A stretch of DNA of 64,000 nt from a virus, in IMG/VR virus record IMGVR_UViG_3300045110_000102, positions 1 through 64,000 of that record; one strand, written 5' to 3'. Made by a program: the position numbers and the translations under genes. Under the pieces are notes generated by a model, which was given only the letters and a program-made list of their open reading frames with translations, was not told where the DNA came from and ran no database searches. This document shows positions 38,916-51,617 of the stretch, piece after piece. Every line of letters begins with the position of its first letter. Position 1 is the first letter of the stretch.

Positions 38916-39557
38916 ATGACAACCATCGTCATCAGTTCGGGGCATGGAGCCAAGGTGCCGGGCGCGGACGGCATCATCAACGAAGTGCAGCAGGCCCGAC
39001 GCGTCGTTGATGCGCTGGCTGCGGAGTTGGAGTCGCGTGAGGTCAACGTGATCGTGTTTCACGACGACACCTCGACCAGTCAGGGCGAGAACCTCAACAC
39101 CATCGTTGCGGCGCATAATCGCGAGACGCGCGATCTCGACATCAGCGTGCACTTCAATGCGTTCGAGCAGCGCGAGGGTCCGGTCGGCACGGAGGTCTGG
39201 TACATCAGCCAGAAGAATCTCGCCGCGCAATTGTCGGCAGCGATGGCTGACGGTGGTGACTTCATTGATCGCGGCGCGAAGTACACCGATGATTTGAAGT
39301 TTCTCAACTCGACGAATAAGCCAGCCGTGCTGCTTGAGGTCTGCTTCGTGGACAGCGAGGAGGACTGCCGACTGTACGAGATGAACTTCACCACCATCAT
39401 CGAAGCGCTGGCTGACGTGTTCGCCGAGGGCGAGGAAGAGATCACCGAGCCGGTGCCGCCGCCGGGCGAAGAGATCATCCCGCCGCGCGTGGACATCTCG
39501 GTCAGCGGTGATGTGCTGATCTACGTCAACGGCGATCAGGTCGGCACGAAGGGTTGA
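38916..39557 (+). CDS. N-acetylmuramoyl-L-alanine amidase (Amidase_3) endolysin
   Basis: IVISSGHG, ISVHFNA, GTEVWY, PAVLLEVCFVD. Confidence 0.92.
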   Translation: MTTIVISSGHGAKVPGADGIINEVQQARRVVDALAAELESREVNVIVFHDDTSTSQGENLNTIVAAHNRETRDLDISVHFNAFEQREGPVGTEVWYISQKNLAAQLSAAMADGGDFIDRGAKYTDDLKFLNSTNKPAVLLEVCFVDSEEDCRLYEMNFTTIIEALADVFAEGEEEITEPVPPPGEEIIPPRVDISVSGDVLIYVNGDQVGTKG

Positions 39558-39561
39558 AGCC

Positions 39562-40125
39562 ATGCCAAATGAAACGCTGGTCATCTCCGTCGCTGGCGCG
39601 AACCTGATCAAGCACTTCGAGTCGTGTTTGAAGAAGAGCGGGCCGGATCGATTCACCGCATATAAATGTCCAGCGGGAGTCGCCACCATCGGATGGGGCA
39701 CGACATCGGAGAACGGGCACAAGATCACGATGGGTCTGGTGTGGTCGCAAGCGCAATGCGATGCCGCGTTCCTCAACGACATGCACGTCTTCGAGTCCGA
39801 CGTGCGCCGTCTCGTCAAGGTGAAGCTGGAGCAGTGGCAGTTCGATTCGCTCGTGAGCTTTTCATATAACTGCGGGGCCGGTGCGTTCGCTGGTTCGACT
39901 CTGTTGAAGAAGGTGAACGCGCAGGACTTCGATGCGGCGGCGCTGGAGTTTCACAAGTGGTGCAAGGCGAAGGGCAAGAAGCTCGATGGGCTTGTGCGCC
40001 GACGCGCGAGCGAGTCGCTGTTGTTTCAGAACATTGCGGATGAAGACTACGACGGCAAGCCTGACAAGATCATCAAGCCGCTCGATGATCCTATGCCGCA
40101 ACATGTGGACAAGCCGTCTCATTGA
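39562..40125 (+). CDS. GH24 lysozyme endolysin
   Basis: IKHFE...AYKCPAGVATIGWGTT, QFDSLVSFSYNCG, GLVRRRASE. Confidence 0.92.
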   Translation: MPNETLVISVAGANLIKHFESCLKKSGPDRFTAYKCPAGVATIGWGTTSENGHKITMGLVWSQAQCDAAFLNDMHVFESDVRRLVKVKLEQWQFDSLVSFSYNCGAGAFAGSTLLKKVNAQDFDAAALEFHKWCKAKGKKLDGLVRRRASESLLFQNIADEDYDGKPDKIIKPLDDPMPQHVDKPSH

Positions 40126-40138
40126 AGGAGTACTGCTT

Positions 40139-40309
40139 ATGACACTCGGTCTCGCATTCTGGATCATCATGCTCATCTGGTTCGTGTTCGGCGGGCTGGT
40201 TCACTTCGGCATGGTTGCTGCTGCCTACACTGGCGTCGGCACGCTGTTGCTGTTCGTGCTGTTCCTGATCTTGGGATGGCAGGTGTTCGGCGCGCCGCTG
40301 CATAAATGA
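40139..40309 (+). CDS. Small two-TM membrane protein (holin candidate)
   Basis: AAGGAG RBS; two hydrophobic segments; follows the endolysins. Confidence 0.6.
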   Translation: MTLGLAFWIIMLIWFVFGGLVHFGMVAAAYTGVGTLLLFVLFLILGWQVFGAPLHK

Positions 40310-40476
40310 GCGCGACGCTATGGGGCGTGGTGGTCGCAGCCCTGCTCGCTGTCGTGGTGTTGCTGTGGTCTACCGGCGCGCTTCGATCACCGACCCTGCC
40401 CGATGATCGCAAGTCGCAAGTCGATCCGCTGCCGCCGTATCCGAGCGGCCCGCCGTCGATCTGCAAAGGATGTTGA
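40306..40476 (+). CDS. Small membrane-anchored Pro-rich protein ending CKGC (56 aa)
   Basis: Translated by hand: MSATLWGVVVAALLAVVVLLW...PPSICKGC; ATGA overlap. Confidence 0.5.
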   Translation: MSATLWGVVVAALLAVVVLLWSTGALRSPTLPDDRKSQVDPLPPYPSGPPSICKGC

Positions 40477-40568
40477 GTTTGTGCTGGCTCTCGATCATCG
40501 TCGCGCTGATGGCTGGCGGGATCGCGGGCGTACTGGCGATGGCTGTCGTGAAGATCGCGAAGGACTGA
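40470..40568 (+). CDS. 32-aa single-TM peptide
   Basis: MLSLCWLSIIVALMAGGIAGVLAMAVVKIAKD; ends at the terminator. Confidence 0.4.
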   Translation: MLSLCWLSIIVALMAGGIAGVLAMAVVKIAKD

Positions 40569-40600
40569 AGGCCCGGGCTCATCACCCGGGCCTTTTTATT
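40568..40600 (+). terminator. Rho-independent terminator of the late operon
   Basis: AAGGCCCGGG-CTCATCA-CCCGGGCCTT followed by TTTATT. Confidence 0.85.
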
Positions 40601-40655: not shown

Positions 40656-41300
40656 TTACGCCGTGACGGTGCGCCGTCGGCGTGCGAGCGCGAGCAGACC
40701 ACCGCACGCTGCGATGAGTCCGGGGATGCCAGCGCCAGCGACGGGGCCGGGCACTGCAAGCGGCGTGACGTCGATGCGATAGTGCTCGAAGTCAGTGATC
40801 GTGCCGCCGACATTTACGAGGTCGAGGTCCCAGATGCGTTCGCCGTTGATCGCTTGGAAGTCGAATCCGTTCTGTCCGTTGCCGAGAGCGTAGCCGCCGA
40901 AGTTAAAGTTCTTGAAGGTGCCGTCAGCTTCCAGCGCGGTGACGTGGAAGAACATACTGCCGCTGCCTTTGATGGAAAAGATTTCCCGCGTGACAGCAAG
41001 CTGTCCGATGTTGTCGCGATCAAAGATCGAGATGTCGAGGTCGGACGTGTTCACGATCTTGATGTCGTTTCCATTTGCAGCGCCGCTGAACGCGCCGTTG
41101 CCAGAGAGATCGCGGAAGCGCACCACCTCATCGTTCTGTCCGTTGAGCCGACCGAGGATCAGGTTGGTGCTGGCGATGTTGGTGAAGATGACGTTGTTGC
41201 CGGTGCCGCCTTGACCGGTGGTGTCGATGATGATGTCGGCGAAGGCTGGCGTTGCCAACGCAGTGAGGATCGCCGCGAGGGCGAGCAGCTTGGTCTTCAT
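40656..41300 (-). CDS. Exported protein with PEP-CTERM-like VPGPVAGAG sorting tail
   Basis: Signal peptide MKTKLLALAAILTALATPAFA; C-terminal VPGPVAGAGIPGL-TM-RRRR. Confidence 0.85.
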   Translation of the reverse strand: MKTKLLALAAILTALATPAFADIIIDTTGQGGTGNNVIFTNIASTNLILGRLNGQNDEVVRFRDLSGNGAFSGAANGNDIKIVNTSDLDISIFDRDNIGQLAVTREIFSIKGSGSMFFHVTALEADGTFKNFNFGGYALGNGQNGFDFQAINGERIWDLDLVNVGGTITDFEHYRIDVTPLAVPGPVAGAGIPGLIAACGGLLALARRRRTVTA

Positions 41301-41406
41301 GGGGAGCCCCTTGGTGTCAGTGTTTGCAAACGTGACCGGCGAACGGTACGCGCGCCGAGGTGCGCGAGCCAGCCGCATATTCTGGACACTGTGGACGGCA
41401 TAACTC

Positions 41407-41703
41407 CTACGTGGGGCGCGTCCGGCCCGGCGGGACAGGGACCCTGACCGACCTTGCCGCCTCAATGGCTCGTTTCCCGGCGGCATCTGCCGCGTCCATG
41501 AGTTGCTGAAGCTCGACCCATGTCACCGTAGCGCCCGGGGCCGAGGCCTCTCCAGCCCCCGCGCTGCTGATCCTGCGGGCCTTCCACGCCCGGGCTCTCC
41601 CGGCGGTCACCCGGCGGCGGTGGCACCTCGGACAGGTCGCCCGGCGAATCGCCCCCACGGGCTTCCAGCGGCGGTGACAGGCCTCACAAATCAGCAGGGT
41701 CAT
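41407..41703 (-). CDS. Zn-ribbon hypothetical protein
   Basis: CEAC...CPRC near the N-terminus. Confidence 0.45.
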   Translation of the reverse strand: MTLLICEACHRRWKPVGAIRRATCPRCHRRRVTAGRARAWKARRISSAGAGEASAPGATVTWVELQQLMDAADAAGKRAIEAARSVRVPVPPGRTRPT

Positions 41704-41762
41704 GGTCCGGTCGCGATCTCTCGTTAGCCCCTGTAGGGTCACTCAAACCCAAGGGAGAGCCT

Positions 41763-42293
41763 ATGCCTTACGTCACTGGATTCCTGAACGTTCACGAGGG
41801 CGGACAGCCCGACAACGCGCTGCCGGGTGGCGGCGGTCACCCATCGCAGGGACTGCCCGGCCACGGTCACCCGGGCCAAGGCCTGCCGATGCCGCCCAGC
41901 GGGACGCTGCCTGCGCCGCCGCCCGGCATGTGGCCGCCGCCGTCGCTCGGCAACCCGATCCTGCCAGCACCTCCCGGCACGCCGCCCGGCACCATCTGGC
42001 CATCGCCGGGACTCCCCGATCATCCGAGCAACGTGCTCCCGGGTGGCGGACACGCGAGCGGCCAGCCGATCCCGCCGCCGCCCGGCGGATCGATTGACAA
42101 CACGCTGCCGAGCGCGCCGCCGCAGGCAGGCAACGGTCTGCCGTCGAAGACCTACTGGATGATTTGCTACGCGCCGAATCTCGGATGGAAGTACGTCGCG
42201 GTCGATCCGTCGCTGACGCCCGGCCAAGGCTTGCCGCCTGCATCGGGCTCGATTGACAACACGCTGCCGCAGGCACCAGCGCCGAAGAAGTAG
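41763..42293 (+). CDS. Pro/Gly-rich low-complexity protein with DNTLP and GQGLP repeats
   Basis: GGGAG RBS; internal repeats. Confidence 0.75.
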   Translation: MPYVTGFLNVHEGGQPDNALPGGGGHPSQGLPGHGHPGQGLPMPPSGTLPAPPPGMWPPPSLGNPILPAPPGTPPGTIWPSPGLPDHPSNVLPGGGHASGQPIPPPPGGSIDNTLPSAPPQAGNGLPSKTYWMICYAPNLGWKYVAVDPSLTPGQGLPPASGSIDNTLPQAPAPKK

Positions 42294-42348
42294 AACATCA
42301 CGCACTTCGTCAACGCATTGGGCCAGCATCGGAAATATCCGTGCTGGC

Positions 42349-42615
42349 CTATTGCTTCCGGCCTGTCCCGGTGATGTGCGTGGTGTTGCTCTTGATCCAC
42401 TCGACCATGTCATCGCGCAGCACAAATCCCTCAAGCTGCTCGGCGAAGGCGTGCGCCTGTCCGATGCGATCCTGCTTGCCCTTGTCGGTCGAGATGATCT
42501 GGCACGCGACCGCCAGCGTCAGCGCGGTGCACGCTTCCGCGTTGTCCTCGCCAGCGAGGAGACCGTTGATCTGATCGACCAGCCGCACGACGTAGTCTTG
42601 TCGCTCATCGCTCAT
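42349..42615 (-). CDS. Hypothetical protein
   Basis: ATG overlapping the upstream stop; helical composition. Confidence 0.7.
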   Translation of the reverse strand: MSDERQDYVVRLVDQINGLLAGEDNAEACTALTLAVACQIISTDKGKQDRIGQAHAFAEQLEGFVLRDDMVEWIKSNTTHITGTGRKQ

Positions 42616-43001
42616 GTCTTCGGTCCTACGAGGAAGGTTGGAGGGGCGGGGATCGGCATGCGCAGCGAGCGCCACATGTGCAAGCAGTGCGGATGGAAGT
42701 TCACGTGCAGCGACTTCGGCGGATGATACTGCACGACCAGTTCTTCTTCCGCCCAGAAGATGTCCTTGACGAAGCACATCTCCTCCCACGTCGGACAGCG
42801 TTCCTCGCACGAGACCGACACGTGCTCCCATCCGTTCTCCTCATCGATGCCGCTCGATATCGCGAGCAACAGCGTCGTGCCGCCGCCCTTGACTGGCGCG
42901 AGCAGCTTGAACATTCCGGCGAGTCCATAGCTGTCGTCGCTCGCCATGTCGCCGGTGCGAACGCGGTTCGCCTGTAGCACCAGTGGAATGTAACGCCTCA
43001 C
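42612..43001 (-). CDS. Conserved phage hypothetical protein (WEHVSVS...CPTWEEM...HPHCLHMW family)
   Basis: Recognisable His/Cys motif pattern widespread in phages. Confidence 0.8.
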   Translation of the reverse strand: MRRYIPLVLQANRVRTGDMASDDSYGLAGMFKLLAPVKGGGTTLLLAISSGIDEENGWEHVSVSCEERCPTWEEMCFVKDIFWAEEELVVQYHPPKSLHVNFHPHCLHMWRSLRMPIPAPPTFLVGPKT

Positions 43002-43234
43002 CCGTTCACCGCTGGCTTCATGTTGCTGTTTGCGTCGATGAAGTGATCCATCAGGCTGCGCATCTTGATGCGCTCCTTGTCTGGCATCCGCTTCAGTCCC
43101 CACGCGATGCACGCAGCAAGCGCCATGATGCTGTCGCCGGTGGTCTCACCCTCCAGTACGTCGCCGATCCTCGTTGCCAGCGCGTTCATGTGCGCGGCCT
43201 GCTCCTGCGGTGTGCGCTTCTGATTGTCTGTCAT
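42998..43234 (-). CDS. Hypothetical protein
   Basis: Overlap packing; similar to 42349-42615. Confidence 0.7.
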   Translation of the reverse strand: MTDNQKRTPQEQAAHMNALATRIGDVLEGETTGDSIMALAACIAWGLKRMPDKERIKMRSLMDHFIDANSNMKPAVNG

Positions 43235-43241
43235 CACGCGC

Positions 43242-43673
43242 TCACTGCTTCGTGCCGGGATCGTACGCGTCGAGGAGCTTGTCGAGCCCTTGATCGGCGA
43301 CACTACATTCATCAACGAGGCGGCGATGGGCAACGTCTCGCGTGATCTTACCATCGCGAAGCTCGTGCATAATGCCGTTGACCTTAGCCATATTGCTCGC
43401 GATCTCTTCATTGCTGAGTTCATCCTTCACGTTGCTCTCCTTGTGCTGTCTGATCTGCTCTTCGAATATTCGCATCACGTCAGTGGTCGCGACGCCGTTG
43501 CTGATGCGGCTCGCCATGCCGCTCTGATCCCCGTACGGAAACACGAGCAGGATGAATCCGTTGTTGCGCTCGCCGCCGGTTGCGACCTTCTCGCCATTGA
43601 GAATCCGATCCAGCGCAGCCGCGAGGTTCTGCATCGCCTCGCTCATCGTCATCTCGATTCCGTCTTCGCTCAC
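43242..43673 (-). CDS. Hypothetical protein
   Basis: GFILLVFPY...RISN motif; GGAG RBS before GTG. Confidence 0.7.
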   Translation of the reverse strand: MSEDGIEMTMSEAMQNLAAALDRILNGEKVATGGERNNGFILLVFPYGDQSGMASRISNGVATTDVMRIFEEQIRQHKESNVKDELSNEEIASNMAKVNGIMHELRDGKITRDVAHRRLVDECSVADQGLDKLLDAYDPGTKQ

Positions 43674-43951
43674 AGTTCTTCTCCGTCCGAGTGATCCTTC
43701 TTCAGCGTCTCCAGTTCGGCTGAGACGCGCGTCGCGATGATCGAGTTGGTCGCGCGGTCCTCGGTCAGGTCGAAGCGTTTCTCTTTGTGCTTCGAGTACG
43801 CGATGATGTACCAGCGCATCTCGTCCATCTTGTACATCTTGCCGAGCGGCACCGTTGCGGTCTCGCCCATCTTCAATCGCTTGAGGATGTTGTGCACATA
43901 CTCCGACATCGTCTCCAGCTTCTGCTTCTGCTCCTGCCACGGCTCCATCAT
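43670..43951 (-). CDS. Hypothetical protein
   Basis: GAGGAG RBS; overlap packing. Confidence 0.7.
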   Translation of the reverse strand: MMEPWQEQKQKLETMSEYVHNILKRLKMGETATVPLGKMYKMDEMRWYIIAYSKHKEKRFDLTEDRATNSIIATRVSAELETLKKDHSDGEEL

Positions 43952-44154
43952 CTGTACTCCTCGATGCTGGTCGGCTGACCCATCAGCGTGATGTTGACCG
44001 AACCCTTCTTGAGTTGACCGAGGATGCTATCGGCAAGGTCGTTCGCCTTCTCGACGGTGCTAGCAACGAAGATCAGCCGCACCTCGCGGCCAATCACCTC
44101 GACGCGGACTCCCTTGCCGTAGTCGGGGTTGGTGAATTGTCGATCAGTCGCCAT
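43948..44154 (-). CDS. Hypothetical protein
   Basis: Overlap packing; AAGGA RBS. Confidence 0.65.
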   Translation of the reverse strand: MATDRQFTNPDYGKGVRVEVIGREVRLIFVASTVEKANDLADSILGQLKKGSVNITLMGQPTSIEEYR

Positions 44155-44366
44155 CAGTAGTCCTTCCGCGTGGTCTCGATCTGGTAGGCAAGGTCGCGCA
44201 TCCTCTCGATGGTCTTCGGCACGTTGTTCACTCCGATGGTCATCACGGCGTACACCTCGCCGTCCTCCCTTTCCAAGTTGAAGTGAATCGCCGTGCACTT
44301 CGGATCGCTGCACAGGCCCATGATGAAGCTGTGCGCCAGTTCGGCTGTCATCGTCTGCACCTCCAT
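44154..44366 (-). CDS. Hypothetical protein with CSDPKC motif
   Basis: ORF track; start may be the second Met. Confidence 0.65.
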   Translation of the reverse strand: MEVQTMTAELAHSFIMGLCSDPKCTAIHFNLEREDGEVYAVMTIGVNNVPKTIERMRDLAYQIETTRKDY

Positions 44367-44740
44367 GATTTGCCGCCGCGCGTGATCACCTTGCGCATGT
44401 GATGCCGTGTGCAGACGTCGCCGCGATCCGCAACGCGAGCGCGCGTGCGCTTCACTGGCGTTGGCTCATCATCGACCACGAGCACCGGCGGCACCTTCGA
44501 CTCCGGAGGATCGAGCACGATGCGCTCTGTCTTGACCGGCACCGGCTCGGTCGATGCGACCACCGGTCGCGCGATTTGAATCTCTCTGACCCTGTCCTGC
44601 TTCTTCAGCGGCTCGGCCTCGACCTGCAGGTTCGGCTTCGGCACCACGATGCGCTCGGCGCTTGGCACGCGCTGGATGGCGAACACCACCATCAGCGCGG
44701 CCAGAGCGGAGACGCCGAACCAAACACTACTCCGAGTCAA
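44348..44740 (-). CDS. Membrane-anchored protein with C-terminal CxRHxMRKV...SWRCRR motif
   Basis: N-terminal hydrophobic segment; start uncertain. Confidence 0.6.
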   Translation of the reverse strand: MTRSSVWFGVSALAALMVVFAIQRVPSAERIVVPKPNLQVEAEPLKKQDRVREIQIARPVVASTEPVPVKTERIVLDPPESKVPPVLVVDDEPTPVKRTRARVADRGDVCTRHHMRKVITRGGKSWRCRR

Positions 44741-44921
44741 TGGAGACCAGTGCAGATCGAACGAGAGCGGCTTCCACCGGATGGCCGTTCTCTTCCAGAA
44801 GGTTGATCGCGCTGTTGACGACTTCAACAAGCCGCCCATTGCGAGCGATGCTGCGCCGAAGTGCAGCGGCGAGATGCTCTCCGACTCGGAGCATGCGCTC
44901 GGTCCTCTCATCAGGCATCAT
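44727..44921 (-). CDS. Hypothetical protein
   Basis: Overlap packing. Confidence 0.6.
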   Translation of the reverse strand: MMPDERTERMLRVGEHLAAALRRSIARNGRLVEVVNSAINLLEENGHPVEAALVRSALVSIDSE

Positions 44922-45358
44922 CCCATCTTCTTCGTGAAGTCGTCGCACGCGTCGCGGATCGCCTTCGACAGATTGCTGGCTGTCTCGATCAGCAGCTTGG
45001 TGTGCTCGCCCTTGTTGCGTATCTGCTTCGCCGCTTCCTCGATGGTCTTGAGGTCGTGAAGCAACTCTGTCTGCGAAGCATCAAGCTGCGGCATCAGCGC
45101 CTTCACCATGTCGCCGAGCTTCTCGACCTGCTCCGCCGTGTGCTCGTACTGCGTCATCACCGCTTGCGCAGAGAGCTTGCCGAGATCGGGATTGTGCGCG
45201 TCGAGCATCGGGATGCCGTCCTCACGCGCGGGCGGCGGACGGCGCACCACTTCGGAGACTTCTTCTTCAAGCGTGCGCAGGTTGATGTGCTCGCGGCTGC
45301 GCGCCGGTGGGCGGACAGCGTTGCCGGTGCGCGGCAGTGTTGGCAGTTGTTCGTTCAT
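44918..45358 (-). CDS. Coiled-coil hypothetical protein
   Basis: AAAGGAG RBS; heptad-like C-terminal half. Confidence 0.75.
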   Translation of the reverse strand: MNEQLPTLPRTGNAVRPPARSREHINLRTLEEEVSEVVRRPPPAREDGIPMLDAHNPDLGKLSAQAVMTQYEHTAEQVEKLGDMVKALMPQLDASQTELLHDLKTIEEAAKQIRNKGEHTKLLIETASNLSKAIRDACDDFTKKMG

Positions 45359-45379
45359 TCGGTCGCTCCTTTGATGCGT

Positions 45380-45556
45380 TCAGTTGTGTAGATAGGGGAG
45401 AAGATTATCAGGCACCTTCTTCTTGCCGTGCCGGTGCATGAAGTTGGCGAACATGCGGCACTGCGCGTCGATGCGTTCTTCGATTGGAAGCCTGCGCGAT
45501 TCCTTCAGCATCTCCATGAGCGCAGGCAGTTCTCTGATGGCGGCATCTTCGCTCAC
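45380..45556 (-). CDS. Small hypothetical protein
   Basis: AAAGGAAG RBS before GTG. Confidence 0.6.
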   Translation of the reverse strand: MSEDAAIRELPALMEMLKESRRLPIEERIDAQCRMFANFMHRHGKKKVPDNLLPYLHN

Positions 45557-45879
45557 TGGTCGCTTCCTTTGATGCGTTGATATCTCGTGTAGTACTCGAT
45601 GCAGAGTTCGAAGGGATCGGGCACACCGTGTGCCGCCCACCATTCGAGTTCGTTGCCGTGCGCGTGCTGCGCCATGTGATGGTTGTGCTTCAGCGGCAAG
45701 GCCCAACGGTCATCGGGCTTGCCCCATCCCTTGTCTTTGCCGTGCTTGAATGACCGTGCGCGAAGATGCGCGGCATCACATGGCGGAGCTTGCAAGCAGC
45801 CGCACACGCAACGTTGCGAGCGCAGCCACTTGAGGTAGCCCGGATCACGCAGTGGCGGTTGCCGCTGCCGCAGTGTCAC
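45553..45879 (-). CDS. DUF968-like HNH-related protein
   Basis: YLKWLRSQRCVCGC...DAAHLR...KPDDRWALPL..HH..QH. Confidence 0.75.
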   Translation of the reverse strand: MTLRQRQPPLRDPGYLKWLRSQRCVCGCLQAPPCDAAHLRARSFKHGKDKGWGKPDDRWALPLKHNHHMAQHAHGNELEWWAAHGVPDPFELCIEYYTRYQRIKGSDQ

Positions 45880-46922
45880 CGGCGTTTGCCTTTGTTCGGC
45901 TCTTGCTTCGGCTTGCGGTCGGGCGGGAAGATGTCCGCTTGGACTTCGCCCTGCTGCTGCCCCGTGCCAGATGATCCGGCAGATTGTTCGCCATCCTTCG
46001 GATCGCCGCCGACAGCATCAGCGCTTCCGCCTTTGTCCGCACCGTCGTCGGCTCCAGCACGAGGCTGATCGCCCCGTCCTTCACCGACAGGTTCATCACC
46101 ACTTCCTTTGACAACTTCATCTTTCACCTCTTCTTTGACGACGTCGGAATTGACTTCGCCTTCTATGATCGAGTTGCGAGCCGCTGCCTGCGTGGCAACG
46201 TGCTCGACGTCGAAGCCTCGATCTCCTGCCGCGCGAGCCGCCTTGGCGTCGCGAAGTTTCTGTGCGTAGGCCGCAACCTTGCTGATCGGCATATCGACCG
46301 CTATCGATCCGTCATCGAGTTCGTCCGGCGTGTAGACGCCGAGCAGCACTTCGCTGGCGAACAGTCGGCACCATTGCCGCACGGTCGAGTAAGCAAGCTG
46401 CACCTCGGGCACCGTCTCCCACAGTGGCGAGCCACCGTAGCCGCCACCATCCCTGCGCTTCGGTCGTGCGTCGAGCATCTCCTTCAGCGTCGGGCTGGTG
46501 TACTCGTGCGGCCTCTCTTCGCCCCTGAATAGGCCGGACACCTTGCAGCGGCGCTGATCGCCTTCGCCGAGTATCTCGTGCCGCAGCCGCGTCTTCAGCG
46601 GAGCGCGCGCGGTGATCACCGCATGCACAAGCTGCGCCTCGAACGCGATCCGCTCTTCGCCCTTGTTCACTACCTGATAGGACTTCTCAGCGACGGCGAA
46701 CGGGTCCATCTGCCAGCGCAGCGCGCGCGAGCAGATCGCGAGACAGCCGCCGGGATTGCCGCGCAGATAGCCCGGCACTGCCGAGCCGGAGACCGCCATC
46801 AACTTGGCGAACTCCATCACCTGTCCCATGTTCTCCAGCGCGATGCCGCCGATCTCGGCATTCACTGTGATCGGTGCAGCGATAGCACGATCAACACGCC
46901 TCTCGATTTCAGTCACGTCCAT
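45876..46922 (-). CDS. recT: RecT-family ssDNA annealing protein
   Basis: VPGYLRGNPGGCLA...WQMDPFAVA...AFEAQLV...VLLGVYTPDE; next to a RecE-like gene. Confidence 0.85.
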   Translation of the reverse strand: MDVTEIERRVDRAIAAPITVNAEIGGIALENMGQVMEFAKLMAVSGSAVPGYLRGNPGGCLAICSRALRWQMDPFAVAEKSYQVVNKGEERIAFEAQLVHAVITARAPLKTRLRHEILGEGDQRRCKVSGLFRGEERPHEYTSPTLKEMLDARPKRRDGGGYGGSPLWETVPEVQLAYSTVRQWCRLFASEVLLGVYTPDELDDGSIAVDMPISKVAAYAQKLRDAKAARAAGDRGFDVEHVATQAAARNSIIEGEVNSDVVKEEVKDEVVKGSGDEPVGEGRGDQPRAGADDGADKGGSADAVGGDPKDGEQSAGSSGTGQQQGEVQADIFPPDRKPKQEPNKGKRR

Positions 46923-46948
46923 AGTCTTTGCTCCGTTTGAGTTCAGAT

Positions 46949-47884
46949 TTACGCAAGGCCTTCAGCCTTCAGTCGAGCGTCGATGCGCGCGCGCTTCTCG
47001 ATGCCGATGCCGAGCGCATCAAGGTCACCCTCGCCCGGTCCCGGCCAATGACCGGCGTCGATGCACCGGCGCACCTCGCGCATTGCCCATCGGTTCATCT
47101 GCCGACCGCGTCCCAAGTCTTCCTCGACCAGCGGGACGGTGCGCGCGCAGTACGGGCTCGCGGTCTCGACGAACATTAGCATGAACGAAGCGAACGGCAG
47201 ACCGAGTCCCTCGCAGACTTCGCCGATCAGCGCGCCTTGCTGCTGATATCCGAGATCGTGGATCGACGCCTGCAGCGCGTACGATGTCACCTCGCGCGCA
47301 GTCTTGAGATCAACGAAGTCGTCTTCCGTCGGCGGGATCACGTCGGGCCGCACCTTGATCCAGAGTCCAGTCTCCTTGTCCTTCCAGAAGCCGGAACACT
47401 CGACGTAGCCAGACAGCAGACCTTCATCCACCAGCGGTTCGAGCTTGAGACTCTTCGCCATCTGCACGATGGACTTCAACTCCTTCACCGTGACGATCAC
47501 GCGGCCTTCGCGTGCTTGCCGCTCATTCCATTCCTGACAGGCGTGCGCGTTGTTATTCCACTTCTTCTCTTCACCGGTCTTGCGGTCGCGATAGGTCTCG
47601 GGCTGCGCGGTGAACTTCGCATCGAACTTGTCTTCGCCGAGCAGCAGGTGATGCGCCGCCGAGCCGAGCAGCATCGGTCGCGTCACTTCGCGCGCTTCAC
47701 TCTCTGGGTTCTCGCACCACTGCGCGTGCATGTGCTTCGCGCTCTTGCTCCAGAGCGTGCGCAGGTTCGATGATGACACCGTCGGACCGTCGCAGAGGTC
47801 GGCGCTGTGATAGCGCTCGATGGGGATGCCCGAGTACCAGCCGGGCTTGGTTATTTTCTTGCCAGTCCACTTCGTCACTTGCAC
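46949..47884 (-). CDS. RecE/exonuclease VIII-like PD-(D/E)XK nuclease (DUF3799)
   Basis: YHS...VSSSNL, LGSAAH, KVRPD...VDLKT, GYQQQGA. Confidence 0.85.
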   Translation of the reverse strand: MQVTKWTGKKITKPGWYSGIPIERYHSADLCDGPTVSSSNLRTLWSKSAKHMHAQWCENPESEAREVTRPMLLGSAAHHLLLGEDKFDAKFTAQPETYRDRKTGEEKKWNNNAHACQEWNERQAREGRVIVTVKELKSIVQMAKSLKLEPLVDEGLLSGYVECSGFWKDKETGLWIKVRPDVIPPTEDDFVDLKTAREVTSYALQASIHDLGYQQQGALIGEVCEGLGLPFASFMLMFVETASPYCARTVPLVEEDLGRGRQMNRWAMREVRRCIDAGHWPGPGEGDLDALGIGIEKRARIDARLKAEGLA

Positions 47885-47928
47885 CTTGGTTGCTCCTTTG
47901 GTGTCGTCATAAATTGAGTCGAACGGCG

Positions 47929-47957
47929 ACCATAGCCTCTGGTCAATCCGTTTTCAA
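47929..47957 (-). promoter_or_regulatory. Putative sigma70 promoter for the leftward operon
   Basis: Minus strand TTGAAA-N17-TATGGT in the divergent intergenic region. Confidence 0.45.
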
Positions 47958-48008
47958 CCGGCTATTGTTAAACCTTCTATGGATTTTTCCAGAGGGTGAA
48001 CGAGAGAG

Positions 48009-48293
48009 ATGATGATGGGAGCACAGACCAATGGCTCTTCGCGCAAGCGGTTGCGCGGAGAGGTGATCAACCGCAGCAAGAACAGGGACAAGAAGCGCGA
48101 CGCGATCATGCGGACAGTCTTCGCGCGGCCCGGCTTTGCCAGCGAGATCGCCAAGCATCTGGGTGTTTCTCCACAGAATGTTTCTGCATGGAATCGCGTA
48201 CCGCCTCACCACGTGGTCGCGCTCGCGCCTATGCTGGGACTTCCGCCCGAGAAGATTCGCCCGGACATCTTCGGAGGGAGACGCAGGATTTGA
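48009..48293 (+). CDS. Cro/YdaS-like HTH transcription regulator
   Basis: SEIAKHLGVSPQNVSAWNRVP...IRPDIFG. Confidence 0.85.
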   Translation: MMMGAQTNGSSRKRLRGEVINRSKNRDKKRDAIMRTVFARPGFASEIAKHLGVSPQNVSAWNRVPPHHVVALAPMLGLPPEKIRPDIFGGRRRI

Positions 48294-48736
48294 ATTGGAC
48301 CGATGCCGCCGATGCGATGCTGGTCAAGCTGTGGGATAGCGGAGCCTCGCTCGGCTACGTGGCGGATGGATTGTGCCTCGCTGGCTACGTGGTGAGCCGC
48401 AACTCTGTCGCCGGTCGTAAGCACCGATTGACACAGAAGGGCGTGGTCTTCCGGCGCGTCGGTCCACCGATCAGGAGCAAGCCACTACGACAGCCTATCA
48501 ACCAGCAACGGAGCAAACGAATGAACACCAAAGCAACTGACACTCCTGTCGAGCCGTTTGATCACAGTACTCACGAGGGCATCGAGTATCTGGAGAACAT
48601 TGATGGATGCAAGGCCATCCTCGGCAAGCGCGGCGGGGCGTGGATGTTGCCGATGGTGTGCGGACGACGGAGGACAAGCGGAGAGCCGTACTGCAACGAG
48701 CACCTGATGATCTACACCAACCAGCAAAGGAAATGA
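48290..48736 (+). CDS. gcrA: GcrA-like cell-cycle transcription regulator
   Basis: NWTD...LVKLWDSGAS...VSRNSVAGRKHRL and C-terminal CK.ILG...CG...GEPYCNEH. Confidence 0.85.
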   Translation: MNWTDAADAMLVKLWDSGASLGYVADGLCLAGYVVSRNSVAGRKHRLTQKGVVFRRVGPPIRSKPLRQPINQQRSKRMNTKATDTPVEPFDHSTHEGIEYLENIDGCKAILGKRGGAWMLPMVCGRRRTSGEPYCNEHLMIYTNQQRK

Positions 48737-48737
48737 C

Positions 48738-49196
48738 ATGGCCAAAGCAGCGAAGACCACTGAAGTCGAGATCACCGAGAAGATGGTGAACAAGTTCGTC
48801 GGCGACATTCTCGAACGACAGGAGCGAATTGAATCCGCGCGCGGCACGTACATGAATGCCGCGCGTCGTGAGCGTGAGGCGATGACGACGATCTACGAAG
48901 GCCTCGCTGCGCGTGGCGTATCGCAGAAGTCGGCGAAGACCGAGATCAAGATCATCAATGCGCTTGAGCGGATCAAGGGCTGGATGTCCGATCTCGAAGT
49001 CGAAGATCGCAAGATGGTGCAGCGGCTCGCGAAGGTGCAGGGCGACAAGAAGCAGTTGCTGTTGTTCGGCGAACTACCAGCCGCACCGAAGCCCGAGAAG
49101 AAGAGCAAGGAGAAGAAGCCAGCCGAGCCGGTGCAGACCGATCTCGTTGAAGCAACCGCCGCCGCTGGCGCTCCATCACTGTCGCTGGTGTCGTGA
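48738..49196 (+). CDS. Putative GapR/DUF2312-like DNA-binding protein
   Basis: FVGDILERQERI...TIYEGLAARGVSQK..K..IKI resembles the GapR helix pattern (weak). Confidence 0.45.
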   Translation: MAKAAKTTEVEITEKMVNKFVGDILERQERIESARGTYMNAARREREAMTTIYEGLAARGVSQKSAKTEIKIINALERIKGWMSDLEVEDRKMVQRLAKVQGDKKQLLLFGELPAAPKPEKKSKEKKPAEPVQTDLVEATAAAGAPSLSLVS

Positions 49197-49202
49197 GGGT
49201 CG

Positions 49203-49790
49203 ATGCTGGGTAAGGAAGCAAACGCTGGAAGAGCACCGATGCGCGACCGACCGGGGGACCGTTACGACACGGCACCTCCGGCGGTTCACGCGCTGATGTC
49301 TGTCGAGAAGCTACCGCACTACATCTGGGAGCCAGCCGCTGGCAAAGGCAACATCGTCAAGGTGCTCCGCGCCGCCGGGCACCACGTGATCGCCACCGAC
49401 ATCAGGAAGCGCGGCTGTCCGGATGCGACGCTGACCAACTTCCTTGATCCGCAAGAGACCTATCTTGCCGACTGCATCCTGACCAATCCTCCGTACTCAT
49501 ACGCGACGGAGTTCATCAGCCGGTCGCTGGGGCTCGCGCCGCTGGTGATCATGCTGCTGCGTCTCAACTACCTCGAAGGCGGGACGCCGAAGACCGCAGC
49601 CGGGCGCGAGCGTGCGCGGGTGCTCGACAGACTCTCACGTGTGCACGTGTTCTCCAATCGCCTGCCGATGATGCATCGCGCTGGCTGGAAGGGGCCGCGC
49701 GCATCGAGCGCCATCGCGTTTGCTTGGTACGTGTGGGATCGCGATCACGTGGGACCGACAACAATCGACCGCATCAGATGGGAGCAGTGA
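49203..49790 (+). CDS. Putative DNA amino-methyltransferase
   Basis: YDTAP, IWEPAAGKG (SAM binding), ILTNPPY, FAWYVW. Confidence 0.8.
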   Translation: MLGKEANAGRAPMRDRPGDRYDTAPPAVHALMSVEKLPHYIWEPAAGKGNIVKVLRAAGHHVIATDIRKRGCPDATLTNFLDPQETYLADCILTNPPYSYATEFISRSLGLAPLVIMLLRLNYLEGGTPKTAAGRERARVLDRLSRVHVFSNRLPMMHRAGWKGPRASSAIAFAWYVWDRDHVGPTTIDRIRWEQ

Positions 49791-49791
49791 C

Positions 49792-50826
49792 GTGGCAGTG
49801 GTGTGGACTGATCCGAGGAAGGCAGCGAAGGCTGCGGAGAAAAAGTACGACGCGTTGAATCACCTGCTGTTTCAGTTCGGCGTGAACAATCTCACTGCCG
49901 ATCAATTCTGGGGACAGATGAACCAGAACGGCTGGGGGCAATCAGACATCGACGCATGGTGCGCCGATTATTACCAGAGGAGCGCAGAGGAAGATGCAAA
50001 GCAAGAAGCCAAACGAGAAGAAGGGCGGCATGGGTCCGCGCGAACAACAGCTTCGCGATATGCGCGAGGCGCGAGCGGACAAGGCGGCGCGAGCGGGTCG
50101 CGAGATGAGAACGGCGCAGGCCAAGAAGTTGATCGACCAAACTATCACCAAGCCGAACAAGCCCGCGCGCAAGCCCGCCAAGCAGCGAAGGGCCTCGGGC
50201 AGGGGGAGGTGATCCATCTACGCGAGGAGCGCAAGCAGCGCGCGATTGTCGTTGGGCAGGCGCGCTACGACTTCGCTCAGCGCAACGGCTACCTCAACTC
50301 CGGCGCGATGCTGGAAGCTCTCCCGCAGTTCAGCATCGACGGCGCGGTCGGCGAGTGCGGCATCGGCGACCGCCTCGGTCTGGAGTGGCACGAGAACATC
50401 GGCAAGATCGACGGCATCGATGTCGGCACGATAATCGAGGTGCGCTCGCGACCGCCCGGCAAGGAGCTTGGCATCCGAGACAGTGACCGGCGCTTCCTGC
50501 CGCACGTGTTCGTGTGGGTCTACAAAGACTACAGCGTGCGGATACTCGGCTGGCTCTATGGCTTCGAAGGCATGCACGAGAAGGACAGCGAGCTTCACCG
50601 GCAGCGATGGAATGAGAATTCTTACTGTTGGTACAACCCACCGCCGTATCGCTCATTCGAATCTCTGGAGCGCATCATTGCAGACGAGACCAAGGTCGCG
50701 CGCATCTTGGCGAAGCACATCGAGGATGAACCGCGCCGCGAGGAGAAGCGGAGGATTGAACGAGCGAGGCAGCGAGAGAGAGCGGCGGCAGCAGCGGCGG
50801 CTGCTGAAGAACAAGGCGGGGCGTGA
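49792..50826 (+). CDS. Hypothetical protein (possibly two genes read through; internal GTG start at 50209)
   Basis: Open frame; C-terminal half has GAVGECG...DGIDVG..IEVRSR, resembling a PD-(D/E)XK nuclease. Confidence 0.55.
   Translation: MAVVWTDPRKAAKAAEKKYDALNHLLFQFGVNNLTADQFWGQMNQNGWGQSDIDAWCADYYQRSAEEDAKQEAKREEGRHGSARTTASRYARGASGQGGASGSRDENGAGQEVDRPNYHQAEQARAQARQAAKGLGQGEVIHLREERKQRAIVVGQARYDFAQRNGYLNSGAMLEALPQFSIDGAVGECGIGDRLGLEWHENIGKIDGIDVGTIIEVRSRPPGKELGIRDSDRRFLPHVFVWVYKDYSVRILGWLYGFEGMHEKDSELHRQRWNENSYCWYNPPPYRSFESLERIIADETKVARILAKHIEDEPRREEKRRIERARQRERAAAAAAAAEEQGGA
49994..50212 (+). CDS. Small basic protein nested in another frame
   Basis: GAGGAAG RBS; its stop overlaps GTG 50209. 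Confidence 0.5.
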   Translation: MQSKKPNEKKGGMGPREQQLRDMREARADKAARAGREMRTAQAKKLIDQTITKPNKPARKPAKQRRASGRGR

Positions 50827-50890
50827 TGCATCCCCGAGCGCAGGCGACTGCGCTCCACGATGCACCACCGCATCATCGAGGAGATACTAC

Positions 50891-51550
50891 ATGAGGAAGT
50901 TTCTATTAGCCTGCACTGCGCTGGCCGCGATGTCATTGCCTGCCAGCGCTTCGGTCACGTTCGAGTCCAAGCTCAGCGGTACGGGCGACAACGTGATCTT
51001 CAACTCCTTGAGCGGCGACGTCGCGCTTGGAAGTCTGAACGGTCAGCATCAAGGTCTCGTCGAGTTCAGGGCGCTCGATGTCTCGACATTCAATGCCGCT
51101 GCTAACGGCAACGACATCAAGATCAACGGCACCAACAATCTGCAGATCGAGGTGCATGATCAACTGAACTCGTTCGTCATCGGCACCACCACGCAGGTGT
51201 TCTCGGTGATCGGCACTGGCAACCTGTTCGCGTTCGTGCGTGCTGTTGACGCCAATGGAGTTGAAGAGCCGCTCTTCACCTTCGACCTTGGCGATCTCGG
51301 CAATGGCCACGCTCAGAACGGGTTCACGTTCCACGCCACCGACGGCGAGGTGATGACCCGGCTGACGTTGCTCGTTCAGGATGGCACGCTCACTGAGTTC
51401 GAGCACTACCGCATCGACGTTGGTGTGGTGCCGACGGCTGCAGTGCCTGAAGCATCGACGTGGGCGATGATGATCGCTGGCTTCATCGGCGTTGGTGGTC
51501 TGGCGATGCGCAAGCGTCGTCGCGAAGGTCTCACGTTCCGTCTCGCGTAA
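50891..51550 (+). CDS. PEPxxWA-CTERM (PEP-CTERM) exported protein
   Basis: GAGGAG RBS; signal peptide; VPEASTWAMMIAGF-TM-RKRR. Confidence 0.9.
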   Translation: MRKFLLACTALAAMSLPASASVTFESKLSGTGDNVIFNSLSGDVALGSLNGQHQGLVEFRALDVSTFNAAANGNDIKINGTNNLQIEVHDQLNSFVIGTTTQVFSVIGTGNLFAFVRAVDANGVEEPLFTFDLGDLGNGHAQNGFTFHATDGEVMTRLTLLVQDGTLTEFEHYRIDVGVVPTAAVPEASTWAMMIAGFIGVGGLAMRKRRREGLTFRLA

Positions 51551-51560
51551 ACGAAGCGAT

Positions 51561-51592
51561 AAGGCAGTGCCCGACGTGTCGGGTGCTGCCTT
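51561..51592 (+). terminator. Strong hairpin after the PEP-CTERM gene
   Basis: AAGGCAGTGCCCGAC-GT-GTCGGGTGCTGCCTT. Confidence 0.5.
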
Positions 51593-51617
51593 GCAGCTTT
51601 GAGATAAAGGAGCAAGC

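What the first reader, a model, noticed from the sequence alone, without database searches (positions are those of the whole stretch)
40656..51550. Two paralogous phage surface proteins with different exosortase-type sorting tails
Seen: 40656-41300 (-) and 50891-51550 (+) share one passenger domain (GTG[N/D]NVIF, G.LNGQ, AANGNDIKI, QNGF.F.A..GE, FEHYRIDV) after a signal peptide. One ends VPGPVAGAGIPGL-TM-RRRR, the other VPEASTWAMMIAGF-TM-RKRR. The second is flanked by hairpins (GNRA-capped stem 50836-50855; 51561-51592) like a moron. Known: PEP-CTERM/PEPxxWA tails are processed by host exosortases and are linked to EPS-producing bacteria; no exosortase is visible here. Inference: the phage uses the host sorting machinery to display its own protein on the infected cell (receptor masking, superinfection exclusion or altered aggregation), and keeps two tail types to fit two sortases or hosts. 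This is my best candidate for an undescribed system.
Basis: partly seen in the sequence, partly recalled or inferred. Interest (0 to 1): 0.85.

Follow-up and report, generated by a model that had tools for sequence, protein, structure and literature searches.

The report
Phage exported proteins with swappable sorting tails
An uncultured soil phage carries two copies of a small exported, sugar-binding-like protein, each ending in a different bacterial "address label". The family is found almost only in phages and trades these labels often, but no exosortase, the enzyme expected to read them, was found in the ten tail-bearing bacterial genomes tested.

Summary
Window 40656-41300(-) and 50891-51550(+) encode paralogues (40% identity, E 3e-41). 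Each has an AxA signal peptide, one beta-sandwich passenger and a C-terminal motif/TM-helix/Arg-cluster tail.

- **Tails.** The P0002 tail passes the PEP-CTERM cut-offs. The P0001 tail (VPGPxxGAGxPGL) matches no curated model, yet its profile finds 5,243 representative proteins with many different passengers.
- **Carrier.** The 80.6-kb record is a near-complete myovirus-like phage with no exosortase and no tyrosine integrase.
- **Distribution.** At least 104 IMG/VR contigs carry the family, no cultured phage does, and only 2 of 185,579 species genomes do.
- **Tail swapping.** Tails changed at least 34 times on the passenger tree. Passengers 92-96% identical carry different tails.
- **Cassette behaviour.** In a related phage the same slot holds the same signal peptide, a different passenger and a PEPxxWA tail.

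These are phage accessory envelope proteins with modular sorting-type tails. Exosortase dependence is not supported: ten cell genomes bearing these tails lack a detectable exosortase. Two copies in one phage is exceptional (25 other records have one).

This scan had already noted the same kind of thing on other phage DNA (e1-5347713, e1-5356332). Function is inferred: envelope remodelling or superinfection exclusion.

The parts
40656..41300 (-). P0001 gene (214 aa plus stop): signal peptide, beta-sandwich passenger and VPGPxxGAGxPGL-TM-RRRR tail ('T2')
   Evidence: RBS-like AAGGGG lies upstream; homologues start at the same Met
41238..41300 (-). P0001 signal peptide (aa 1-21, MKTKLLALAAILTALATPAFA, AxA site)
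   Evidence: sequence; an AxA site is present in 218 of 241 family members; the model shows an N-terminal helix
40761..41237 (-). P0001 passenger (aa 22-180), an all-beta jelly-roll sandwich
   Evidence: AF2 model, pLDDT 87; the fold resembles CBM29/22/32 and discoidin-type sandwiches, Z 6-8.8
40659..40754 (-). P0001 tail (aa 183-214): VPGPVAGAGIPGL, TM helix, RRRR, ends in A
   Evidence: no NCBIfam or Pfam hit; the tail profile finds 5,243 representative proteins
40567..40595 (.). Strong hairpin between the convergent lysis cassette and P0001. It is an intrinsic terminator for the + strand late operon and a plain hairpin on the - strand
50891..51550 (+). P0002 gene (219 aa plus stop): signal peptide, paralogous passenger and PEP-CTERM/PEPxxWA-type tail ('T1')
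50891..50950 (+). P0002 signal peptide (aa 1-20, MRKFLLACTALAAMSLPASA)
   Evidence: sequence; 21 of 22 residues are identical to the signal peptide of an unrelated-passenger protein in the same slot of L116
51443..51547 (+). P0002 tail (aa 185-219): VPEASTWAMMIAGF, TM helix, RKRRR, ends FRLA
   Evidence: TIGR02595 17.9 bits (cut-off 16), PF07589 20.8 (cut-off 20.7), NF035944 31.8 (cut-off 35)
50836..50874 (+). Conserved two-hairpin leader upstream of P0002: GAGCGCAG-GCGA-CTGCGCTC at 50836-50855 and GATGCA-CCAC-CGCATC at 50859-50874
   Evidence: both hairpins are kept in four related phage loci, with one compensatory change each
51560..51593 (+). 15-bp hairpin downstream of P0002, before the next gene at 51618
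   Evidence: dG -31.4, z -6.7; relatives also have a hairpin here, but of different sequence

Best explanation
The two genes are accessory ('moron'-type) genes of an uncultured soil myovirus that probably infects an alphaproteobacterium.

Each encodes a Sec-exported protein with a single domain. An AxA signal peptide is removed. A roughly 160-residue jelly-roll beta-sandwich of the carbohydrate-binding-module or lectin kind reaches the periplasm. A C-terminal tail (VP motif, one TM helix, an Arg cluster on the cytoplasmic side) holds the protein in the inner membrane.

The tail belongs to the PEP-CTERM class of sorting signals. One copy has the alphaproteobacterial PEPxxWA form. The other has an uncatalogued sister form, VPGPxxGAGxPGL. 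I infer that a host enzyme recognises the VP motif, and that the passenger is then released to or fixed on the cell envelope or exopolysaccharide layer. That enzyme would be an exosortase where one exists, and otherwise an unidentified one.

There the passenger most likely binds a surface glycan and changes how the infected cell meets other phages (superinfection exclusion or receptor masking) or how it aggregates.

Shown: the paralogy, the domain layout, the phage context, the phage enrichment, the frequent tail and passenger swapping, and the accessory positions.
Inferred: export, cleavage, final location and function.
For: - **Paralogy.** 40% identity, E 3e-41.
- **Tail of P0002.** It passes the PEP-CTERM cut-offs.
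- **Phage context.** The record encodes capsid, protease, sheath, tape measure, endolysins, RecT/exonuclease, primase, helicase and terminase. It is 95% complete by CheckV, and its ends overlap by 60 nt.
- **Phage enrichment.** At least 104 IMG/VR contigs hold a relative. No cultured phage does. Two of 185,579 species genomes do, and 3 of 301 genomes of one family.
- **Tail kinds.** Among 241 members: 121 VPGP-GAG, 102 PEPxxWA, 7 hybrid and 5 VPLPA-like.
- **Tail swapping.** At least 34 tail changes on the passenger tree, against 84.5 for shuffled labels. Passengers 92-96% identical carry different tails.
- **Cassette behaviour.** The same slot in relatives L108-L112 holds the family. In L116 it holds the same signal peptide, an unrelated passenger and a PEPxxWA tail.
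- **Position of P0001.** It is convergent with the lysis cassette, just past its terminator. About ten other phage loci have the same arrangement beside the amidase endolysin.
- **The T2 tail is a real C-terminal module.** Its profile finds 5,243 representatives, almost always at the extreme C-terminus and on many passengers with signal peptides. In IMG/VR 188 stretches were confirmed as T2 tails; of 88 tail-bearing ORFs read in the 77 loci examined, 68 carry other passengers.
- **Cellular relatives.** Distant cell relatives carry PEPxxWA tails, and in G198 one lies 16 kb from an exosortase.
- **Fold.** The model is confident (pLDDT 87) and its best matches are CBM or lectin-like sandwiches.
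Against: - No exosortase was found in the phage or in ten cell genomes that carry PEPxxWA or T2 tails.
- Exosortase is rare in the sampled family, 7 of 301 genomes.
- P0001's tail fails every curated sorting-domain model.
- No sigma-54 or PrsR-type site lies upstream of either gene.
- The host is unknown.
- There is no expression or processing evidence.
- The fold matches are generic (Z at or below 8.8, TM at or below 0.5) and do not show glycan binding.
- No tyrosine integrase was found in this phage, and only 7 of 25 related records have one. Classical lysogenic conversion is therefore unlikely for most carriers.
Confidence: 0.55

Rival explanations
1. The tails are plain C-terminal membrane anchors. 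The proteins are never cleaved or sorted. They stay in the inner membrane with the beta-sandwich in the periplasm and act there, for example by blocking DNA entry of superinfecting phages or by binding peptidoglycan or periplasmic glycans. The conserved VP motif reflects shared descent and helix-capping needs, not recognition by an enzyme.
For: No exosortase was detectable in ten tail-bearing cell genomes. The model shows one long C-terminal helix followed by an Arg cluster. The positive-inside rule (established knowledge) predicts stable N-out/C-in anchoring.
Against: The motif before the helix is far more conserved than an anchor needs: V, P, P, G, A, G and P are invariant in 24 diverse tails. 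The same short module recurs on thousands of unrelated passengers, always at the extreme C-terminus. Tails are exchanged as whole units among recognised sorting-signal kinds. These are the hallmarks of sorting signals described in PMC1569441.
Confidence: 0.3
2. The proteins are accessories of the lysis system (spanin, antiholin or a lysis-timing factor), given that P0001 and about ten homologues lie next to the endolysin.
For: P0001 lies next to the amidase/lysozyme/holin-like cassette. The same adjacency is seen in L010, L059, L061, L065, L066, L071, L072 and L075.
Against: P0001 is on the opposite strand, beyond the late-operon terminator. P0002 and its relatives sit in the early operon, far from the lysis genes. 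Most homologues have no lysis neighbour within the fetched flanks (up to 10 kb each side). A cleavable signal peptide plus a C-terminal helix fits neither known spanin type (established knowledge).
Confidence: 0.05
3. They are host genes, not phage genes. They would be bacterial PEP-CTERM genes caught in mis-assembled or mis-binned contigs, or in host DNA flanking a prophage.
For: Distant relatives exist in cell genomes (G198, G205). One closer relative lies in a 260-kb bacterial contig beside a histidine kinase.
Against: Both genes lie between phage genes in a record whose ends overlap. Many carriers are complete records with direct terminal repeats. The slot is syntenic across relatives. GC content does not differ from the rest of the phage.
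Confidence: 0.03
4. They are virion or decoration proteins, for example a receptor-binding tip or capsid decoration, because the fold resembles tail-fibre tip domains.
For: There are weak fold matches to tail-fibre and tailspike domains.
Against: A Sec signal peptide plus a C-terminal TM helix and Arg cluster is incompatible with cytoplasmic virion assembly (established knowledge). The genes lie outside the structural module. The fold matches are generic.
Confidence: 0.02

Closest known systems
PEP-CTERM / exosortase (EpsH) sorting system (Haft et al. 2006, PMC1569441; TIGR02595, PF07589; variant PEPxxWA-CTERM NF035944)
   Same: Both have an N-terminal signal peptide, a diverse small passenger, and a C-terminal motif/TM helix/basic cluster. 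Both come from a soil habitat. P0002's tail passes the TIGR02595 and PF07589 cut-offs, and close homologues pass NF035944.
   Different: The genes are phage-encoded. No exosortase was found in the phage or in the tail-bearing cell genomes tested. No sigma-54 upstream element is present. P0001's tail has VPGP in place of PEP and matches no model. Only two copies occur in the phage genome.
VPLPA-CTERM (TIGR03370) and other PEP-CTERM sister signals
   Same: The architecture is the same and the motif also begins with VP. A few family members (P0037, P0114) score weakly for VPLPA-CTERM at 14.8-16.2 bits. Tails of all these kinds are interchanged on one passenger.
   Different: All scores are below the 25.35-bit cut-off. 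The dominant VPGPxxGAGxPGL form gets no hit at all.
Phage morons and envelope-directed accessory proteins: lambda Bor and Lom, T5 Llp, T4 Imm/Sp, P22 SieA (from my own knowledge, not tested here)
   Same: These are phage genes outside the core modules that send a protein into the host envelope by using a host targeting signal. The lambda bor gene likewise lies just past the lysis genes on the opposite strand. T5 Llp is made early and masks the receptor.
   Different: Those proteins use lipoprotein or plain TM signals, not a PEP-CTERM-class tail. There is no sequence or fold relation. Most carriers here show no tyrosine integrase.
Small PEP-CTERM proteins of bacteria: FxDxF family (NF038126) and flocculation-associated PepA (NF033554; floc formation in Zoogloea, abstract of PMC9012009)
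   Same: They are about 200-aa secreted proteins with PEP-CTERM tails. Weak passenger-level hits were found: P0002 28.6 bits to FxDxF, and the cell relatives 41 bits to FxDxF and 35.9 bits to PepA.
   Different: All scores are below the family cut-offs (50 and 80 bits). The phage family has its own conserved motifs (GTGxNV, NGNDIKI, FEHYRID).

Membership tests
PEP-CTERM sorting domain (TIGR02595 / PF07589) | C-terminal PEP-like motif, TM helix and basic cluster that score above the curated cut-off | tested here: met
   This holds for P0002 only: TIGR02595 17.9 (cut-off 16) and PF07589 20.8 (cut-off 20.7). The margins are narrow, and the motif is VPEA rather than PEP.
PEP-CTERM sorting domain (TIGR02595 / PF07589) | The same feature, tested for P0001 | tested here: not met
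   No NCBIfam or Pfam hit even at E <= 10. The layout is kept, but the motif is VPGPVAGAGIPG and has no Glu.
PEP-CTERM sorting domain (TIGR02595 / PF07589) | N-terminal signal peptide | tested here: met
   Both proteins have a hydrophobic N-terminus with an AxA site. This is true of 218 of 241 family members. No dedicated signal-peptide predictor was run.
PEP-CTERM / exosortase system | An exosortase (EpsH family) in the same organism | tested here: inconclusive
   None is present in the 80.6-kb phage record. The host is unknown. None was found in G001, G002, G024, G088, G116, G121, G082, G011, G016 or G033 (the last nine carry these tails). One is present in G198. Several of these genomes are MAGs and may be incomplete.
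PEP-CTERM / exosortase system | Sigma-54/PrsR-type cis element upstream (reported for Proteobacteria in PMC1569441) | tested here: not met
   No TGGCAC-N5-TTGCW-like site lies upstream of either gene. Window-wide matches are at chance level.
PEP-CTERM / exosortase system | The tail is removed or the protein is transferred by the sorting enzyme | not testable with these tools
   This needs proteomics or fractionation in a natural host.
PEPxxWA-CTERM (NF035944) | Score at or above 35 bits | tested here: not met
   P0002 scores 31.8 bits. Homologues with the same tail kind do pass: P0139 at 36.1 and the L116 slot protein at 39.7. P0002 is therefore a near miss of the same tail type.
VPLPA-CTERM (TIGR03370) | Score at or above 25.35 bits | tested here: not met
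   P0001 and five other T2-tailed members give no hit. The VPLP-type members reach only 14.8-16.2 bits.
Phage moron (accessory gene inserted between core genes) | Lies outside the core modules, has its own boundaries (hairpins or terminators), and occurs patchily among related phages | tested here: met
   P0001 is convergent and lies past the late terminator. P0002 has hairpins on both sides. The slot content varies, as in L116. The family sits in unrelated phage backbones.
Phage moron (accessory gene inserted between core genes) | Base composition deviates from the rest of the phage | tested here: not met
   GC is 0.62-0.63 around both genes against 0.60-0.63 elsewhere. GC3 is 0.77, typical of the phage's genes.
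Carbohydrate-binding-module / galactose-binding-like beta-sandwich | Fold match clearly above background, with ligand-site residues present | tested here: inconclusive
   Foldseek gives CBM29 at E 3e-4, TM 0.35-0.49. VIA gives Z 8.8 (Vip1 receptor-binding domain) and Z 6-7.4 for CBM22/29/32 and discoidin domains. These values are in the generic range, and binding residues were not examined.

The most novel reading that the evidence does not exclude
VPGPxxGAGxPGL-TM-RRRR is an uncatalogued protein-sorting signal of soil bacteria, read by a sorting enzyme that is not a recognisable exosortase. Soil phages routinely load their own glycan-binding and other exported proteins with whichever tail their host reads. 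Tail type would then be a sequence-readable marker of host envelope machinery, and tail swaps would mark host shifts. The phage here, with both tail types, would be feeding two sorting routes in one cell.
Probability: 0.3. Interest if true: 0.8.

Novelty: new variant of a known kind. Interest (0 to 1): 0.62.

Why it matters
PEP-CTERM-class signals are among the most common but least tested protein-sorting signals in environmental bacteria. I found no paper in the searched library that describes phage-borne versions.

If soil phages routinely send their own lectin-like proteins through this route, three things follow:
- There would be a new class of phage accessory functions at the cell surface (exclusion, receptor masking, aggregation or EPS remodelling).
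- The VPGP-GAG tail, with about 5,000 representative proteins, would be a well-defined handle for finding the missing sorting enzyme by phylogenetic profiling.
- Tail type could help assign hosts to uncultured soil phages.

The absence of an exosortase in genomes that carry PEPxxWA tails also questions the assumed one-to-one link between such tails and exosortases in Alphaproteobacteria.

Tried and rejected
- **Expression.** No RNA holder was listed among the public runs. Only soil DNA metagenomes hold the stretch.
- Contexts of homologues on non-IMG/VR contigs could not be read.
- **Passenger annotation.** PHROGs, Pfam and NCBIfam and a PDB sequence profile gave nothing for the passenger. The ESM Atlas gave only sub-0.9 leads. 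BFVD fold hits were weak.
- **Sigma-54 site.** The search was at chance level.
- **Lysogeny.** No tyrosine integrase is present in the record. No recombinase appeared among the remaining large ORFs scanned with PHROGs. Serine recombinases were not searched specifically.
- **Spanin or lysis role.** Rejected on strand, terminator and the position of P0002.
- **Host-DNA artefact.** Rejected on synteny and on complete records with terminal repeats.
- **Which bacteria hold many T2 tails.** This failed. Only 1 of 401 genomes in a class-level sample and 7 of 151 in the family sample had any, at no more than 2 copies each. Cluster look-ups returned only unnamed metagenome proteins.
- **Literature.** Searches for PEPxxWA, and for PEP-CTERM or exosortase together with phage terms, found nothing on point.

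Full report
**Observation**

The ORF listing and translate confirm two ORFs:
- P0001, window 40656-41300 on the minus strand, 214 aa.
- P0002, window 50891-51550 on the plus strand, 219 aa.

Both begin with a hydrophobic leader that ends AxA. P0001 ends AVPGPVAGAGIPGLIAACGGLLALARRRRTVTA. P0002 ends AVPEASTWAMMIAGFIGVGGLAMRKRRREGLTFRLA.

The hairpins are real:
- 50836-50855 is an 8-bp stem with a GCGA loop (-18.6 kcal/mol with flanks, z -4.2).
- 51560-51593 is a 15-bp stem (-31.4 kcal/mol, z -6.7).

**What carries the genes**

The window is the first 64 kb of an 80,644-base IMG/VR virus record that CheckV rates 95% complete. Bases 27-86 repeat at 80585-80644, so the assembly closes on itself.

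PHROGs annotation shows a myovirus-like phage:
- MuF-like head protein, prohead protease, major head protein, tail sheath, tape measure and a tail protein.
- Two endolysins (amidase at 38916-39557, lysozyme at 39562-40125).
- A leftward early operon with RecT and an exonuclease.
- A Cro/CI-like gene at 48009.
- A rightward early operon with a DNA methyltransferase, primase and helicase.
- Terminase and portal beyond the window.

No exosortase (PF09721) and no tyrosine integrase (PF00589) is present in the record. The closest cultured capsids are from Rhizobium phages at about 46% identity, which points to an alphaproteobacterial host. Public runs that hold the stretch are all soil metagenomes.

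**Positions**

P0001 lies just past the lysis cassette and is convergent with it. After the lysozyme come a holin-like ORF and two small TM ORFs (read by eye). Then comes a strong terminator hairpin at 40567-40595. The stop codon of P0001 follows 60 nt further on, on the other strand. A small CxxC...CxxC ORF (41407-41702) lies upstream of P0001 on the same strand. From my own knowledge, this is the same kind of place where lambda keeps bor.

P0002 lies in the rightward early operon, between an unknown 368-aa gene and a 515-aa gene, with hairpins on both sides.

**Tails**

P0002's tail passes the curated cut-offs for PEP-CTERM: TIGR02595 at 17.9 (cut-off 16) and PF07589 at 20.8 (cut-off 20.7). 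It narrowly misses PEPxxWA-CTERM at 31.8 (cut-off 35).

P0001 gives no hit in NCBIfam or Pfam even at E <= 10. Five other members with the same tail kind also give no hit.

A profile of 24 such tails (A2; V, P, P, G, A, G and P are invariant) was searched against 1.84 billion representative proteins:
- It found 5,243 proteins at E <= 1e-3 and 271 at E <= 1e-10.
- The match is almost always at the very C-terminus.
- The proteins are 45-450 aa long, with many unrelated passengers and typical signal peptides.

So VPGPxxGAGxPGL-TM-RRRR is a genuine, widespread C-terminal module with the PEP-CTERM layout. It is absent from the curated libraries I could search.

**The family and where it lives**

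The two protein searches found 382 and 721 clusters (E <= 1e-3). All listed proteins are about 205-275 aa, come from metagenomes, and bear no functional name beyond a few generic automatic labels.

| Collection | Result |
|---|---|
| IMG/VR viral contigs | at least 104 contigs encode a relative |
| Cultured phages (50,697 records) | none |
| GTDB species genomes (185,579), pattern scan | 2 |
| One bacterial family (that of G001), profile search | 3 of 301 |

Notes on the cell-genome hits:
- One of the two pattern-scan hits is a 52.7-kb contig binned in a Xanthobacteraceae MAG. A near-equal-length IMG/VR record (L079, 52,743 b) gives identical hit statistics, so it is probably the same phage.
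- The other lies in a 260-kb contig between a histidine kinase and a Prim-Pol/AAA_25 gene.
- Two of the three profile hits are distant relatives (G198, G205), about 215 aa long with PEPxxWA tails. These score weakly for the FxDxF and PepA small PEP-CTERM families.

The phage family therefore looks like an offshoot of bacterial small PEP-CTERM proteins that has spread among soil phages.

The flanking genes differ widely between loci. About ten loci repeat the 'next to the amidase endolysin' arrangement. Of 25 long records, many of them complete with terminal repeats, all carry exactly one copy. Seven of the 25 have a tyrosine integrase. The two-copy, two-tail state of this phage is thus unusual, and most carriers are not obviously temperate.

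**Modularity**

Among 241 members the tails fall into four kinds:

| Tail kind | Members |
|---|---|
| VPGP-GAG (T2) | 121 |
| PEPxxWA (T1) | 102 |
| Hybrid (VPGPxAG followed by VPEPxTWAMM) | 7 |
| VPLPA-like | 5 |
| Odd | 6 |

On a tree built from the passenger alone, the tail kind changes at least 34 times. Shuffled labels give a mean of 84.5. Passengers 92-96% identical carry different tails.

Relatives of this phage (L108-L112) keep a P0002 homologue in the same slot of a syntenic early region. In L116 the slot holds a protein with three notable parts:
- Its signal peptide is 21/22 identical to P0002's.
- Its tail is a PEPxxWA tail scoring 39.7 bits.
- Its passenger is unrelated.

That second passenger family (VPGGNQP..C.ICG ... 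NDGPDSFF) is itself common in IMG/VR with T2 tails. In IMG/VR 188 stretches were confirmed as T2 tails. Of the 88 tail-bearing ORFs I read in the 77 loci examined, 68 carry passengers other than the family studied here.

The slot's two-hairpin leader is conserved in all five sequences compared, with one compensatory change in each stem.

**Fold**

AlphaFold2 on a 40-sequence alignment gives a confident model (pLDDT 87). It has 13 strands forming one sandwich over residues 22-178, a short disordered linker, and one C-terminal helix over 192-213.
- Foldseek's best PDB hits are CBM29 modules (E 3e-4, TM 0.35-0.49).
- VIA-align gives Z 8.8 to the receptor-binding domain of Vip1, and Z 6-7.4 to CBM22/29/32, discoidin domains and a tailspike domain.

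This is the generic galactose-binding-like jelly roll. It suggests glycan or receptor binding but does not show it.

**The exosortase question**

Classical PEP-CTERM is defined partly by co-occurrence with EpsH (PMC1569441). I tested cell genomes that carry these tails.
- G002 has eight PEPxxWA proteins over the cut-off. G024, G088 and G116 have several each. G121, G082, G116, G011, G016 and G033 have T2 tails.
- None has a hit to PF09721, TIGR04178 or TIGR02602 where these were tested.
- The G198 exosortase used as a protein query against G002, G024, G088, G116 and G121 also found nothing.
- G198 does have an exosortase, 16 kb from one of its distant family members.
- Across the sampled family, 7 of 301 genomes have an exosortase.

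Some of these genomes are MAGs, so absence is not proven. Even so, the pattern does not support the assumption that these tails are read by a recognisable exosortase.

G116 holds both tail kinds. Two tails in one phage therefore need not mean two hosts.

**Verdict**

Its two computational checks (phage enrichment and tail swapping) come out positive.

The best reading is that these are phage accessory proteins directed into the host envelope by modular tails of the PEP-CTERM class. The passenger is lectin-like, and the function is probably at the cell surface during infection. P0002 is in an early operon, and most carriers lack an integrase.

Processing by an exosortase, surface display and exclusion are inferences. 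A plain membrane-anchor reading keeps about 0.3.

This scan had already noted the same kind of thing on two other phage genomes (e1-5347713, e1-5356332). My results were obtained independently and agree with those notes.

I found no paper in the searched library that describes phage-borne PEP-CTERM-type proteins.

Noticed in passing
window 50836-50874; L108, L109, L112, L116 at 7926-8000 or 1293-1367: A two-hairpin leader just upstream of the slot gene is conserved in five related phages, with one compensatory base-pair change in each stem. It is kept even where the passenger is replaced (L116). It may be a processing, stabilising or attenuation element for the cassette.
   Followed up: partly
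L116:8001-8759 (+); L125-L201: A second phage-borne passenger family of about 250 aa (motifs VPGGNQP..C.ICG, NNGTGFPDYTLSGF, NDGPDSFF) occupies the same slot in L116, with P0002's signal peptide and a PEPxxWA tail. It is common in IMG/VR with VPGP-GAG tails. At least three further passenger families there also carry such tails.
   Followed up: partly
C-termini of P0001-P0241: The very last residue is Ala or Val in about 88% of family members, whatever the tail kind. PEPxxWA-type tails end [FLV]R[LFVM][AV] after the basic cluster, and the cell relatives do too. This looks like an extra conserved element on the cytoplasmic side and is unexplained.
   Followed up: partly
G002, G024, G088, G116 (cell genomes): These genomes carry several PEPxxWA-CTERM proteins over the NCBIfam cut-off but have no detectable exosortase by PF09721 and TIGR02602 (TIGR04178 on G002 only) or by a protein query. 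This is at odds with the expected PEP-CTERM/EpsH co-occurrence.
   Followed up: partly
window 40125-40566 (+): After the two endolysins come a holin-like ORF and two small single-TM ORFs of about 55 and 34 aa (read by eye), ending at the terminator 40567-40595. They are probably the holin and spanin-like part of the lysis cassette.
   Followed up: no
window 41407-41702 (-) and 41763-42293 (+): A small CxxC...CxxC (zinc-ribbon-like) ORF lies directly upstream of P0001 on the same strand. A divergent 176-aa Pro/Gly-rich ORF (repeats of GxP/LPxxG) with a strong RBS also lies here and has no PHROG hit.
   Followed up: no
G000:C1 27-86 and 80585-80644: The two ends of the 80,644-base record share an identical 60-nt overlap. 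This suggests a circular or terminally redundant complete genome, although IMG/VR labels it 'linear'.
   Followed up: yes
G121:C7:23053-23285 (L099): Two adjacent short frames in a 10.3-Mb cell genome each end in a VPGP-GAG tail. They may be a tandem pair of tiny tail-bearing genes, or frameshifted pieces.
   Followed up: no
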